Shown: piece after piece, positions 29,585 through 33,821 of the stretch
Layout: every line of letters begins with the position of its first letter
Position numbering within the stretch: position 1 is the stretch's first letter
Assembly: GCF_054482525.1 (NCBI RefSeq)
Contig: NZ_CM137006.1
Length of the DNA: 64,000 nucleotides
Direction: 5' to 3' (one strand)
Made by a program: the position numbers and the translations under genes
Notes under the pieces: model-generated
Databases searched by the model: none
Told to the model about the DNA's origin: nothing
The model's input: the letters and a program-made list of their open reading frames with translations, nothing else

Positions 29585-30694
<1,110 letters not shown>

Positions 30695-30761
30695 TGGGCG
30701 GTATTCTGAAACGGCGATTGTCGTGAGAACAGAATGGTTGCACCAGAATACAGATATAAAA

Positions 30762-30790
30762 AAACCGACATGACAGTCGGTTTTTTTATT
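30762..30790 (+). terminator. rho-independent terminator after mnmH
   Basis: aaaaaccgacatgacagtcgg hairpin followed by tttttttatttttt. Confidence 0.7.
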
Positions 30791-31105
30791 TTTTCCGCCC
30801 AAGACTTGGTGGTTCCGGGCAGAAATGAAACAGTCCTCATCTAGCAAGTGAATTATAAGTCAGGATGCCTACATATTCAAACAGCTATGTTGGCGATACA
30901 ATCCCGACGCTAGTAGTGATACTGCCTCAAGGGATTACCGCAGTGCGGAAAAGTACTTTTAAGTCCTGGTCAGGATACAGGTGGTGCTGATTCTGGTGCT
31001 CTAATTTGGAGAGAGGCAGTCCTCATCTAGCACATGAAGAAAATCATAGTTACAGGCAACGTAAGGGTAAGCTGTGATTGTCTTTCTCCCTTAAGGGAGC
31101 AACGG

Positions 31106-31189
31106 ATGAAAACTTTTCTCGATAAAGTTCTCATCGTTCTTAAGGCGCTAATCGCGCTGCTGGAACTGATCCGTCAGTTTATTGAATAA
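31106..31189 (+). CDS. candidate 27-aa hydrophobic peptide (DinQ/TisB-like type I toxin?)
   Basis: atg preceded by agggag Shine-Dalgarno; encodes MKTFLDKVLIVLKALIALLELIRQFIE, a single amphipathic/hydrophobic helix; followed by a hairpin. Below the six-frame track length cutoff. Function inferred only from resemblance. Confidence 0.35.
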   Translation: MKTFLDKVLIVLKALIALLELIRQFIE

Positions 31190-31197
31190 CTGAGGAA

Positions 31198-31236
31198 ACG
31201 TAGCTAAGGCCGAAGGTTTACCACCTTCGGCCTTTA
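31198..31236. terminator. hairpin downstream of small ORF (possible bidirectional terminator)
   Basis: aaggccgaaggtttaccaccttcggcctt inverted repeat flanked by T-run on one side and A-run on the other. Confidence 0.5.
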
Positions 31237-31289
31237 AAAAAACCGACATGACAGTTGGTTTCATATTTATTGCCAAAATGCACACTGTT

Positions 31290-31390
31290 CATGCCAGATG
31301 CGGCGTAAACGCCTTATCCGGCCTACACAATCTTGCAAAATCAATATATTGCACGATCCTCGTAGGCCTGATAAGCGTAGCGCATCAGGC
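31290..31390. repeat. REP/BIME palindromic units
   Basis: gccagatgcggcgtaaacgccttatccggcctaca and gtaggcctgataagcgtagcgcatcaggc match REP consensus. Confidence 0.6.
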
Positions 31391-31406
31391 AATCTAACGC
31401 CTGTCA

Positions 31407-33821
31407 TCATCCCGCAAACTGCCTGAACAGCGCCTTACCCTTAACCAGTCGCGCACCCAGCCAGCCGCCGAAAAGCGACAGCAGCAGCGCACCGCTGCAC
31501 GGCAGCACAATCCACAATCGCCAGTCTGGCTCCCACGGGAAATCAAACACTTTCGCCTGCAACACTGCCAGCGCCGTTTCCGCACCAATTGCGGCTACCA
31601 GGCCAGAAACAAACCCAAGCATGGCGAACTCACACCACAATGTCGTGCGCAGCAGTTTTTTCCCCGCTCCGAGTGTGCGCCACACCACCAGCTCCTGATG
31701 ACGCTGACGCATTCCCACCTGCACCTGTGCCAGCAACAGCAACATACCGCAGGCGGTGACCAGCACCACCATCACTTCCAGCGCCCGACTTACCTGCTCC
31801 AGCACCTGGCCGACCTGTTTTAAAATCGCGCCAATATCTAACAGGCTAATTGTCGGGAACTGGCGGTTGAGTTGCGTCAACATGCCGTTGCCATTCTCCC
31901 AGCGGAAACTGGTAAGCCAACTCTGCGGTTGTCCGTCTAATGCCCCTTCAGGGAAAATAAAATAGAAATTAGGCCGCAGACTTTCCCAGTCCACTTTGCG
32001 AAGGCTGGTCACTTTAGCGCGGAACTCCTGGGTATCGCCCATAAAGGTGACTGTATCGCCGAGGCCAACGTTTAAGCGTTTCGCCAGCCCCTCTTCCATC
32101 GACACTTCATCGGCTTTTGGCGGCCAGTTACCGGCGACAATCGGATTATGATCGGGCCGCGTATTTTGCCAGGTAAGATTAAGTTCGCGATTGAGCGCCT
32201 CATCTTCATTGCCTTCTGTCGGCTTGCCGTTAATCGCCGTCAGTCTCGCCCGCACCACCGGATAAAATGATTCCGGGACTATCTGATGTTCCGCGAGGAA
32301 CGCTTTTAGCGGTGCTACCTGTTCTGTGGCGATGTTGATTAAAAAATAGTTCGGGCTTTCTGGCGGTAGCTGCTGTTGCCAGCGGTCGAGCAGATCACCA
32401 CGCAATACCAGCAACAGCGCCAGCAGCATAAAGGAGAGCGAAAATGCCGAAAGCTGGCTTAACGTTGACCACGGCTGACGTAACAGGCGGCTAACCGCCA
32501 GGCGCAGAGGCAGCGATTTCAGCGTCATGCGGCGAAGTACATTCAGCAGCATCCAGCCCAGCACACCGCACAGCAAAGCCAGTACTACCGCGCCCGCCAG
32601 CACCGCCCAAAGCAGCATGCTGCCACCCATTAATCCGGCGAGCAGCACCACAACCACCACACTGACAATCGGCAGATAAAACTTCAGCGGCCAGACGTTC
32701 GCTACCACATCATTACGTAATACGCGTAAAGGCTGCGTTGCCAGCAACAAGCGGTATGGTCGTAGCCCCACCAGCAGCGAGATAACCGTCATGGTGCCCA
32801 GCGCCCATAGCCACGGCCAGAGGCTGGCTGGCGGTAGTGCAGCAGGCAGAACGGGCTTGAGCAGCACCATCAACACGTTTTCGAACAACAGGCCTATCGC
32901 CCCGCCGGTAACGGCTGAAAGCGCCAGCACCATCAACCACTGACCGACGATTAGCTTACGCAGTTGCGCTCGCCCTGCCCCCAGCGTTTTGAGGATCGCC
33001 ACCAGATCGTAGCGACTGCGACAGTAATGATTCATCGCCACCGCCACCGCTGCCACTGCCAGCAGCAAGGTCAGAAGCGCCGAAAGCAGCAGGAACTGTT
33101 GCGAGCGTTCCATCGAGCGCCCCAGCGCGCCTTCGTCCTGTTCCAGACCGTACCAGCGTTGTTCGGGTTTAAGCTGGGGTAACAACCATTTCTCATAGCC
33201 GTCGAGCTGGTTCTCGTTGCCGCCGAATTTATAGCGCCAGGTGACCCGACTTCCCGGCTGCACGGCTCCGGTTTTATCGACATCCGCCAGATTCATCATC
33301 AGACGCGGAGCCATCTGGAAGGGGTTAAAACCGGAATCCGGTTCCTGAATCACTTCTCCGGCAATCCGCAAGGTGGCATCACCCACGTCGATGGTGTCGC
33401 CTGTTTTCAGGTTAAGCAGTGCCATCAGGCGTGGGGCCAGCAATACGCTGCCCGCCTGCGGTTTCAGGCCAGGGGGATTAGTTTGCAGATCGCCATACAT
33501 CGGGTAGATATCATCCACCGCTTTGACGTTCGCCAGCTGCGGTGTGTCGCCTGCAAATGTCATGGTGGCGAAAGTCAGCTGCTTGCCGACTTTCAGGCCG
33601 CGCTTTTGCGCTTCCTCCAGCCACGCTTGCGGCACTTCGCGCGAACTGCGCAACGCCCGATCGCCCGCCATAAACTCCCGGCTTTGCTGGCTTAAGCCCT
33701 TCTCCATGCGATCGCTGATATTGCCCAGCGCCAGCACGCAGGCCACCGCCAGGCTTAGCGCCAGCCAGACAATTAATAGCGACGGCGAGCGCCATTCGCG
33801 CCAGAACCAACGTGCAATCAT
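31407..33821 (-). CDS. ybbP: ABC transporter permease (FtsX-like, two-repeat)
   Basis: 804-aa polytopic ORF; 4-bp overlap with upstream ATPase gene ybbA. Confidence 0.9.
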   Translation of the reverse strand: MIARWFWREWRSPSLLIVWLALSLAVACVLALGNISDRMEKGLSQQSREFMAGDRALRSSREVPQAWLEEAQKRGLKVGKQLTFATMTFAGDTPQLANVKAVDDIYPMYGDLQTNPPGLKPQAGSVLLAPRLMALLNLKTGDTIDVGDATLRIAGEVIQEPDSGFNPFQMAPRLMMNLADVDKTGAVQPGSRVTWRYKFGGNENQLDGYEKWLLPQLKPEQRWYGLEQDEGALGRSMERSQQFLLLSALLTLLLAVAAVAVAMNHYCRSRYDLVAILKTLGAGRAQLRKLIVGQWLMVLALSAVTGGAIGLLFENVLMVLLKPVLPAALPPASLWPWLWALGTMTVISLLVGLRPYRLLLATQPLRVLRNDVVANVWPLKFYLPIVSVVVVVLLAGLMGGSMLLWAVLAGAVVLALLCGVLGWMLLNVLRRMTLKSLPLRLAVSRLLRQPWSTLSQLSAFSLSFMLLALLLVLRGDLLDRWQQQLPPESPNYFLINIATEQVAPLKAFLAEHQIVPESFYPVVRARLTAINGKPTEGNEDEALNRELNLTWQNTRPDHNPIVAGNWPPKADEVSMEEGLAKRLNVGLGDTVTFMGDTQEFRAKVTSLRKVDWESLRPNFYFIFPEGALDGQPQSWLTSFRWENGNGMLTQLNRQFPTISLLDIGAILKQVGQVLEQVSRALEVMVVLVTACGMLLLLAQVQVGMRQRHQELVVWRTLGAGKKLLRTTLWCEFAMLGFVSGLVAAIGAETALAVLQAKVFDFPWEPDWRLWIVLPCSGALLLSLFGGWLGARLVKGKALFRQFAG

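What the first reader, a model, noticed from the sequence alone, without database searches (positions are those of the whole stretch)
30800..31060. Direct repeats upstream of the small ORF: candidate duplicated antisense RNA region
A 16-bp motif cagtcctcatctagca (22 bp with two mismatches) occurs twice, at 30826 and 31018, 192 bp apart, in an otherwise non-coding spacer between the mnmH terminator and the small ORF. Type I toxin loci such as dinQ/agrAB carry paired homologous antisense sRNA genes upstream of the toxin; the duplicated segment could mark such genes or a long structured 5' UTR.
Basis: inference. Interest (0 to 1): 0.4.

Follow-up and report, generated by a model that had tools for sequence, protein, structure and literature searches.

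The report
Antitoxin RNA and its toxin-mRNA target
The two repeat copies are the business end of a small antisense RNA and the matching site in the leader of a tiny membrane-toxin mRNA, so this is an ordinary second copy of the known E. coli dinQ/agrB toxin-antitoxin system.

Summary
The repeat is real. The exact 16-mer CAGTCCTCATCTAGCA sits at 30831 and 31017, 186 bp apart, not at 30826/31018; shuffles never gave two copies.

It lies in a 570-bp accessory module (30709-31278) between mnmH and ybbP. The module is present in 1332 of 5426 complete E. coli genomes, alongside the core dinQ locus.

- **Copy 1** is the 5' end of a minus-strand sRNA (30844->30756). This sRNA matches Rfam AgrB above its gathering score and has its own promoter and terminator.
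- **Copy 2** is that sRNA's target, about 75-100 nt upstream of a 27-aa DinQ-family toxin ORF (31106-31189). RefSeq already calls this ORF dinQ.
- A direct DNA repeat plus divergent transcription gives RNA complementarity: 14 perfect pairs, then a G-U-rich extension, -35 kcal/mol against -17 for shuffles.
- Across 17 related loci the sRNA and target sequences change together (18 of 24 pairs changed on both sides).

There is one sRNA gene plus its target, not two sRNA genes.

Unlike true dinQ, this copy has no LexA box. About 10% of carrier genomes have deleted the toxin start and target but kept the sRNA.

The kind is known and the interest is low. Expression and toxicity are untested here.

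The parts
30709..31278 (.). 570-bp accessory module inserted between the mnmH stop and the REP elements before ybbP
   Evidence: An empty-site genome (O6:K2:H1, L004) aligns with the window up to 30708 and again from 31279. The module is present in 1332 of 5426 complete E. coli genomes.
30756..30789 (.). Perfect 14-bp palindromic hairpin flanked by an A-run and a T-run. It is the terminator of the AgrB-like sRNA (minus strand) and, read the other way, of mnmH.
   Evidence: The terminator scan finds it on both strands. It is the conserved terminator of the AgrB family. It is absent from the empty site.
30756..30844 (-). AgrB-like antitoxin sRNA, about 89 nt: a 5' antisense segment, stem-loop 1 and a terminator
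   Evidence: Rfam RF02891 matches at 53.6 bits (gathering 40), full length 1-84. It aligns with K-12 agrA and agrB. Fold z-score is -4.9.
30852..30880 (-). Sigma-70 promoter of the sRNA (TTGAAT, 17-nt spacer, TATAAT). It puts the transcription start at about 30844.
   Evidence: It is the only promoter-like site found in 30650-31420, matching 10 of 12 positions. It aligns with the K-12 agrA and agrB promoters.
30822..30844 (-). Antisense segment of the sRNA (nt 1-23). Repeat copy 1 (30831-30846) covers its perfectly matching part.
30897..30909 (+). Predicted toxin promoter -10 (TACAAT, 30897-30902) and transcription start (G at 30909), placed by homology only
   Evidence: It aligns with the conserved -10 and the mapped +1 (GTTAGC) of K-12 dinQ and 11 other loci. 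The -35 is weak, and the site is not called by the promoter scan.
30909..31105 (+). Toxin 5' UTR of about 197 nt, homologous to the dinQ 5' UTR
   Evidence: Alignments; folds.
30921..30928 (+). Element 1 (ACUGCCUC). In the full-length mRNA it is predicted to pair with the target region.
   Evidence: In the minimum-energy fold, +13..+20 pairs with +105..+112. This is analogous to the K-12 1:2 duplex (PMC5066626).
31008..31030 (+). Target site of the sRNA in the toxin mRNA (+100..+122). Repeat copy 2 is at 31017-31032. Element 2 (GGAGAGAGG, 31008-31016) is its 5' part.
   Evidence: Duplex of 23 bp at -35.0 kcal/mol, against -17.3 +/- 2.4 for shuffles. It aligns with K-12 dinQ G88-A119, the mapped agrB site.
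31082..31099 (+). Element 3 (CUUUCUCCC) and element 4 with the Shine-Dalgarno sequence (AAGGGAG; GGAG at 31096-31099). These form the SD-sequestering hairpin.
   Evidence: the SD pairs with +178..+181 in the full-length form and again when the sRNA site is blocked. Element 3 pairs with element 2 in 5'-truncated forms.
31106..31189 (+). Toxin ORF of 27 aa plus stop: MKTFLDKVLIVLKALIALLELIRQFIE
   Evidence: NCBIfam toxin_DinQ at 40.9 bits (cut-off 30). RefSeq annotates it as dinQ. The SD lies 6 nt upstream. RefSeq's 51-aa version, starting at 31034, is probably over-extended, as shown experimentally for K-12.
31206..31274 (+). Toxin 3' hairpin (31206-31234) followed by a degenerate second copy of the sRNA terminator (31235-31274, 83% identical to 30757-30796)
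   Evidence: The second copy is probably the relic of a further sRNA gene from a tandem array, as seen intact in Citrobacter amalonaticus L020. This is inference.

Best explanation
The repeat is the recognition pair of a DinQ/AgrB-family type I toxin-antitoxin module.

**Why a direct repeat gives pairing.** A constitutive minus-strand promoter (30880-30852) makes an AgrB-like sRNA of about 89 nt (30844->30756). Its first ~23 nt are the reverse complement of repeat copy 1. The toxin gene is transcribed divergently from about 30909. Because the two genes point away from each other, a direct repeat in the DNA becomes complementarity between the RNAs. The sRNA 5' end therefore pairs with copy 2 (31008-31030) in the toxin 5' UTR.

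**Mechanism, by analogy with K-12 dinQ (inferred here).**
- The full-length mRNA is translationally inert. Its 5' end pairs with the target region, and the SD is locked in hairpin 3:4.
- 5' processing frees element 2 to pair with element 3, which opens the SD.
- sRNA binding to element 2 and the target restores the SD hairpin, and the duplex probably becomes an RNase III substrate.
- The result is that synthesis of the 27-aa membrane toxin is blocked.

This copy lacks a LexA operator, so it is probably not SOS-induced.

**What is shown and what is inferred.** Shown: the sequence anatomy, homology, complementarity and family covariation. Inferred: transcription, processing, toxicity and repression.
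For: - **sRNA.** Rfam AgrB matches above its gathering score on the minus strand, full length.
- **sRNA promoter.** The only promoter-like site in the spacer lies exactly upstream of that match.
- **Toxin.** The ORF passes the NCBIfam DinQ cut-off and RefSeq names it dinQ.
- **Homology.** sRNA, promoters, UTR and ORF align base by base with K-12 agrA, agrB and dinQ. Copy 2 falls on the mapped agrB-binding site.
- **Pairing strength.** The cognate duplex is -35.0 kcal/mol, against -17.3 +/- 2.4 for shuffles. K-12 agrB on this mRNA gives only -20.6.
- **Direction of the differences.** All four A/G differences next to the exact core run in the direction that keeps G-U pairs.
- **Family covariation.** In 17 distinct loci from Escherichia, Citrobacter and Serratia genomes and from plasmids:
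  - the sRNA 5' end and its target covary;
  - 94.6% of cells are paired, against 76.8% in shuffles and about 42% in slid controls;
  - 18 of 24 pairs changed on both sides, and 0 of 500 shuffles reached the observed values.
- **UTR elements.** The predicted folds reproduce the 1:2, 2:3 and 3:4 elements of the K-12 model.
- **Experimental precedent.** Base-pairing dependence was shown in K-12 (PMC3567139, PMC5066626). For plasmid dqlB/agrB it was shown with compensatory mutations (PMC12365149).
Against: - No transcript, toxicity or repression data exist for this locus.
- Its pairing is the weakest of the 17 pairs: 18 Watson-Crick, 4 G-U and 2 mismatches of 24, where others have 20-23 Watson-Crick.
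- The sRNA 5' segment is predicted to form a weak hairpin of its own.
- The toxin promoter has a poor -35 and is not called by the scan.
- Minimum-energy folding does not show an open SD in the truncated form. It also fails to show this for the experimentally validated K-12 +44 RNA.
- Covariation between the two copies could partly reflect gene conversion between direct repeats rather than selection for pairing.
Confidence: 0.87

Rival explanations
1. One reading: the two repeat copies mark two homologous antisense sRNA genes upstream of the toxin, like agrA and agrB.
For: K-12 does carry two tandem sRNA genes, agrA and agrB. Some relatives carry two or three.
Against: - Covariance-model and HMM searches find a single sRNA body in the module.
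- No minus-strand promoter lies downstream of copy 2.
- No minus-strand terminator lies between the two copies.
- Copy 2 aligns with the dinQ mRNA target site, not with an sRNA gene.
- In K-12 the motif occurs three times (agrA, agrB and the target). Here it occurs twice.
Confidence: 0.02
2. A decaying relic: the locus descends from a dinQ/agrB module, but the toxin, the sRNA or their interaction no longer works. On this view the repeat is a fading vestige.
For: - It has the weakest complementarity in the family, and pairing beyond about nt 23 is lost.
- The toxin -35 is weak.
- About 139 of about 1322 carrier genomes have a 108-bp deletion. It removes the target core, SD, ATG and 7 codons but keeps the sRNA.
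Against: - In the intact allele the ORF, SD, -10, sRNA promoter, stem-loop and terminator are all intact.
- The module is at least 99% identical in about 1320 genomes. In a cryptic-clade Escherichia sp. it has only one synonymous ORF change, while flanking mnmH is 94.9% identical.
- The 14 contiguous perfect pairs at the sRNA 5' end exceed the longest uninterrupted in-register run of the non-functional K-12 agrA on dinQ (9).
- Loss of the toxin with retention of the antitoxin is what is expected if the toxin is active.
Confidence: 0.1
3. A chance repeat, or a member of a dispersed REP/BIME-type repeat family.
For: REP elements lie nearby at about 31287-31400, where there are sub-threshold naRNA4 and ES036 matches.
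Against: The 16-mer has only these two copies in 64 kb, and 0 of 100 shuffles gave two. It does not overlap the REP elements. The same two-site arrangement recurs, with different sequence, in every family locus examined.
Confidence: 0.01

Closest known systems
dinQ/agrAB type I toxin-antitoxin locus of E. coli K-12 (arsR-gor intergenic region; Weel-Sneve 2013, Kristiansen 2016)
   Same: - Divergent, non-overlapping sRNA and toxin genes.
- The sRNA 5' end is complementary to the toxin 5' UTR about 70-100 nt upstream of the SD.
- Homologous sRNA body and terminator.
- Homologous UTR, with elements 1-4 and an SD hairpin.
- A 27-aa peptide sharing ALIALLELIR.
   Different: - One sRNA gene, not two.
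- The recognition sequence differs: UCCUCAUCUAG against UUCUUAUCUAA. Canonical sRNAs pair poorly with this target, at -19 to -26 kcal/mol.
- No LexA operator: 6.4 bits against 23.6 and 13.0 in K-12.
- Shorter, G-U-rich pairing.
- ATG rather than GTG start.
- It sits in an accessory 570-bp module at mnmH-ybbP, not in the core genome.
dql (dinQ-like) genes of Enterobacteriaceae chromosomes and plasmids (Kristiansen 2016). These include dqlB/agrB of pOXA-48, IncX3 and IncI1 plasmids, validated in 2025 (PMC12365149, PMC12317039).
   Same: - Non-SOS DinQ homologues with a conserved 5' UTR.
- A cognate AgrB-like sRNA, each with its own recognition sequence.
- No LexA box.
   Different: - The peptide is of the DinQ/Serratia oryzae type (27 aa). 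It scores below the DqlB cut-off: 24.5 bits against 35.
- It is chromosomal rather than plasmid-borne.
- I could not verify whether this exact locus is one of the 14 published dql genes, because the supplement is not held.
Other trans-encoded type I systems with a divergent upstream sRNA: zorO/orzO, tisB/istR-1 and shoB/ohsC
   Same: The same architecture: an sRNA gene lies 5' of and divergent from the toxin gene, with short complementarity to a long, processed 5' UTR (T1TAdb paper).
   Different: They are not detectably homologous at curated thresholds. OrzO-P scores 24 bits here against a gathering score of 60.

Membership tests
DinQ/AgrB type I toxin-antitoxin family | Small hydrophobic toxin matching the DinQ protein model | tested here: met
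   NCBIfam NF041472 toxin_DinQ scores 40.9 bits (cut-off 30) for the 27-aa ORF at 31106-31189.
DinQ/AgrB type I toxin-antitoxin family | sRNA matching the AgrB covariance model (5' single strand, stem-loop, terminator) | tested here: met
   RF02891 scores 53.6 bits (gathering 40), model positions 1-84, on the minus strand at 30844-30756. The consensus structure is shared by 14 family sRNAs.
DinQ/AgrB type I toxin-antitoxin family | sRNA gene upstream of, divergent from and not overlapping the toxin gene | tested here: met
   The sRNA 5' end is at 30844 (minus strand) and the predicted toxin start is at 30909 (plus strand). The promoters are back to back.
DinQ/AgrB type I toxin-antitoxin family | At least 15 nt of complementarity between the sRNA 5' end and the toxin 5' UTR upstream of the SD | tested here: met
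   14 contiguous Watson-Crick pairs, 22 of 24 positions paired when G-U is counted, -35.0 kcal/mol.
DinQ/AgrB type I toxin-antitoxin family | 5' UTR with mutually exclusive elements 1:2, 2:3 and 3:4 controlling SD access | tested here: inconclusive
   All three pairings are predicted. The same software does not reproduce the open SD of the validated K-12 +44 RNA, so prediction alone cannot settle this.
DinQ/AgrB type I toxin-antitoxin family | Peptide toxicity and repression by the sRNA through base pairing | not testable with these tools
   It has been shown only for K-12 dinQ/agrB and for pOXA-48 and pOXA-484 dqlB/agrB.
dinQ proper (SOS / LexA-regulon gene) | LexA operator in the promoter | tested here: not met
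   The best PWM score in the module is 6.4 bits, which is background for this window. K-12 scores 23.6 and 13.0. All canonical DinQ orthologues score 21-24 bits at one fixed position, apart from the promoter-deleted O150:H6 locus L008. No dql-type locus has a box at that position. The PWM was built from LexA boxes recalled from memory and validated on K-12.
agrA + agrB paired sRNA arrangement | Two tandem homologous sRNA genes upstream of the toxin | tested here: not met
   There is one sRNA body only. A 40-nt terminator relic at 31235-31274 lies downstream of the toxin, not upstream.
REP/BIME dispersed repeats | Multi-copy palindromic units of about 35 nt | tested here: not met
   The motif has two copies in 64 kb and is not palindromic. 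REP units are separate, at 31287-31400.

The most novel reading that the evidence does not exclude
The accessory sRNA may have a job beyond guarding its own toxin.

- Its U/G-rich 5' end is predicted to pair appreciably with the core SOS toxin dinQ mRNA. Values are -28 to -31 kcal/mol with 12-14 uninterrupted pairs, at or above the level of K-12 agrA.
- It is kept intact in the roughly 10% of carrier genomes that have deleted their own toxin start and target.

On this reading the module would tune the SOS-toxin threshold strain by strain. It would be a non-SOS paralogue cross-wired to the SOS one.
Probability: 0.1. Interest if true: 0.45.

Novelty: already known. Interest (0 to 1): 0.18.

Why it matters
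It matters little as a discovery. Both genes are recognised by curated models, and the toxin is already annotated in RefSeq.

It is useful in three smaller ways.

- **Annotation.**
  - The sRNA is not annotated in the RefSeq record I examined.
  - The 51-aa CDS is probably 24 residues too long.
  - The product name 'damage-inducible' is probably wrong for this copy.
- **A natural specificity series.** Each locus carries its own sRNA-target sequence.
- **Strain variation.** It is a strain-variable type I toxin in about a quarter of E. coli genomes, which could matter for persistence or membrane-stress phenotypes.

Tried and rejected
- **Two sRNA genes.** Rejected: there is one sRNA body, and copy 2 has no promoter or terminator.
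- **REP/BIME.** Rejected.
- **LexA control.** A PWM scan with a K-12 positive control found no box.
- **Internal promoter at TGCTCTAAT (30997-31005).** This would make a short primary transcript. I set it aside because the hexamer lacks the critical A at position 2 and the scan does not call it.
- **Full-length RNA duplex energies.** These are inflated by long interior-looped pairing, because the sRNA gene and the UTR are diverged duplicates over about 80 nt. I used the 5' 24-26 nt instead.
- **Minimum-energy folding of the SD switch.**
  - The truncated window RNA forms 2:3, but its SD then pairs with +91..+94.
  - The K-12 +44 control also failed to show an open SD.
  - So this step stays inferred.
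- **Is this locus a published 'dqlA'?**
  - The supplements of Kristiansen 2016 and T1TAdb are not held.
  - A search for 'dqlA' returned only unrelated papers.
  - Full-text search for the peptide or the repeat found no paper.
- **Target-site duplication at the module ends.** None was found.

Full report
**Observation.** The exact 16-mer CAGTCCTCATCTAGCA occurs at 30831-30846 and 31017-31032 on the + strand. The match extends to 22 nt with two mismatches. Spacing is 186 bp. With up to two mismatches allowed there are no other copies in the 64-kb window. The chance expectation is 0.01, and 0 of 100 shuffles gave two copies.

**What surrounds it.** The window is Escherichia coli. The gene order is allS, mnmH (29600-30694, +), a 712-bp spacer, then ybbP (31407-33821, -).
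- Rfam's AgrB model (RF02891) matches the minus strand at 30844->30756 over its full length, at 53.6 bits against a gathering score of 40. It is one of only three gathering-level Rfam hits in the whole window.
- The only promoter-like site in the spacer is on the minus strand (TTGAAT, 17-nt spacer, TATAAT, 30880-30852). It places the start at about 30844.
- The hairpin at 30756-30789 is a perfect palindrome between an A-run and a T-run. It scores as a terminator on both strands.
- The small ORF encodes MKTFLDKVLIVLKALIALLELIRQFIE from ATG 31106, with GGAG 6 nt upstream. It passes the NCBIfam DinQ model at 40.9 bits (cut-off 30).
- RefSeq annotates it as 'damage-inducible type I toxin DinQ', usually as a 51-aa form starting at 31034.

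**Homology with the characterised locus.** I aligned the module with K-12 agrA, agrB and dinQ (L002).
- The sRNA, its promoter, the toxin -10, the 5' UTR, the SD region, the ORF and the 3' hairpin all correspond.
- Copy 2 falls on the segment of dinQ mRNA (G88-A119) that agrB binds experimentally (PMC5066626).
- Copy 1 falls on the 5' end of the sRNA, where agrA and agrB carry their 31-nt antisense region (PMC3567139).
- Since the two genes are transcribed divergently, a direct repeat in the DNA gives complementary RNAs.
- So the repeat is one sRNA plus its target, not two sRNA genes. HMM and covariance-model searches find only one sRNA body.

**Strength and specificity of pairing.**
- sRNA nt 1-14 pair perfectly with 31017-31030.
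- The next nine positions give G-U, G-U, A-U, C-G, one mismatch, then G-U, A-U, G-U, C-G.
- All four A/G differences between the DNA copies run in the direction that keeps a G-U pair.
- The duplex is -35.0 kcal/mol, against -17.3 +/- 2.4 for shuffled sRNA segments.
- K-12 agrB on this mRNA gives -20.6. K-12 agrA, known to be non-functional on K-12 dinQ, gives -28.2 there.
- This toxin therefore depends on its own sRNA.
- In the other direction, this sRNA is predicted to pair moderately with core dinQ targets, at -28 to -31 kcal/mol.

**Family-wide test.**
- One DNA-pattern scan of species-representative genomes returned 21 loci. They come from Escherichia, Citrobacter, Serratia and Pantoea genomes and from some misassigned contigs.
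- Nearly every locus with enough upstream sequence has an AgrB-like sRNA placed divergently upstream of the toxin.
- I also used plasmid dqlB loci.
- Together these gave 17 distinct sRNA-target pairs whose central sequences differ widely but match within each locus.
- On a fixed-register alignment:
  - 94.6% of cells pair, against 76.8% in shuffles and about 42% with slid partners;
  - 18 of 24 pairs changed on both sides, and 0 of 500 shuffles reached the observed values.
- Caveats:
  - I chose the best-pairing nearby sRNA as cognate.
  - Related sequences inflate such counts.
  - Gene conversion between direct repeats could contribute.
- The window pair is the weakest of the 17, with 18 Watson-Crick pairs where others have 20-23.

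**Likely mechanism (inferred).** The homology-placed start is G at 30909, downstream of -10 TACAAT. This aligns with the conserved -10 and the mapped +1 of dinQ.
- In the full-length RNA, +2..+20 pairs with the target region and the SD sits in hairpin 3:4.
- Removing 30-60 nt from the 5' end lets element 2 and the target pair with element 3 (14 bp), which breaks the SD hairpin.
- Blocking the sRNA site restores the SD hairpin.
- Between K-12 and this locus the 2:3 helix shows a U-A to A-U swap, read directly from the sequences.
- The software does not predict an open SD even for the validated K-12 +44 RNA, so this step rests on analogy.
- Base-pairing-dependent repression has been shown for K-12. 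For pOXA-48 dqlB/agrB it was shown with compensatory mutants.

**Differences from dinQ proper.**
- A LexA PWM, built from boxes recalled from memory, finds both K-12 operators (23.6 and 13.0 bits). It finds a box of 21-24 bits at the same position in every canonical DinQ orthologue except the promoter-deleted O150:H6 locus (L008).
- In this module the best score is 6.4 bits, which is background. No dql-type locus has a box at that position.
- The closest toxin relative found is in Serratia oryzae: VKTLIDKVLIVLKALVALLELIRQFID.
- The locus therefore behaves like the published 'dql' class (PMC5066626). I could not confirm that it is one of the listed members.

**Genomic status.**
- The module (30709-31278, 570 bp) is an insertion relative to an empty mnmH-ybbP site in O6:K2:H1.
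- K-12 has rhs remnants at that site, and another strain has T6SS genes.
- 1332 of 5426 complete E. coli genomes carry the module, about 1320 of them at 99% identity or more.
- Carrier genomes listed also have the core dinQ locus, shown as two places per record.
- A cryptic-clade Escherichia sp. has the module at the same site.
- The 'mnmH terminator' belongs to the module. It is the sRNA's terminator, used in both directions.

**Verdict.** The repeat is the sRNA-target recognition pair, the defining and published feature of this known family. Interest is low. Expression, toxicity and repression at this particular locus remain untested.

Noticed in passing
window 31018-31125; L030 and L031: About 139 of about 1322 carrier genomes (estimated from identity bands) have a 108-bp deletion between the imperfect repeats AGTCCTCATC and AGTTCTCATC. 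It removes the sRNA target core, SD, ATG and 7 codons of the toxin. The sRNA gene stays intact as an orphan antitoxin. PGAP still calls a truncated 'dinQ' in some of these genomes.
   Followed up: partly
L002 3064-3145 (K-12 agrA) compared with L017, L014 and L009: K-12 agrA is regarded as a degenerate, non-functional copy. Yet it pairs without interruption over 23 of 24 positions (22 Watson-Crick, 1 G-U) with the dinQ target allele of E. coli E69, E. coli SCPM and E. albertii. In those genomes the sRNA at the agrA position is the cognate one, and in E69 the distal agrB-type copy pairs poorly. Escherichia thus has two dinQ target alleles, and which of the two sRNA types is cognate differs between them.
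   Followed up: partly
L008 735-900 (E. coli O150:H6 FEX669, arsC-gor region): This is a core dinQ locus in which the sequence between the sRNA's antisense segment and the dinQ target repeat has been deleted. The sRNA 5' end now abuts the dinQ UTR, and the dinQ promoter and LexA box are gone. The cause is apparently recombination between the direct repeats.
   Followed up: no
window 31235-31274: A 40-nt copy, 83% identical, of the sRNA terminator (30757-30796) sits directly after the toxin hairpin at the right edge of the module. It is probably a relic of a further sRNA gene from a tandem array like the one in Citrobacter amalonaticus (L020). On the minus strand it still reads as a hairpin followed by seven T and could terminate ybbP.
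   Followed up: partly
window 31034-31189: RefSeq annotates a 51-aa CDS from ATG 31034, which lies inside repeat copy 2. Homology, SD position and the K-12 experiments indicate a 27-aa product from ATG 31106. The product name 'damage-inducible' is transferred from dinQ although no LexA box is present. The sRNA is not annotated in the record examined.
   Followed up: yes
window 30694-31407 compared with L003, L004 and L005: The mnmH-ybbP junction is a variable spot. It is empty (140 bp of REP) in O6:K2:H1, holds rhs and ylbG remnants in K-12, holds DUF2931 and tssD (T6SS) genes in strain 4/0, and holds the toxin-antitoxin module here.
   Followed up: partly
window 30796-30852 compared with 30955-31038: The similarity between the sRNA gene and the toxin UTR extends, with indels, well beyond the 22-nt repeat (for example ACTTGGTGGTTCC against ACAGGTGGTGCTG). 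This suggests the sRNA gene arose as a duplicate of the UTR segment, read from the other strand.
   Followed up: no
window 17669-17735 (-) and 31327-31369 (+): These are the other two gathering-level Rfam hits in the window: STnc480 (84.9 bits) and ES036/CssrF (40.3 bits). The second lies within the REP elements next to the module.
   Followed up: no
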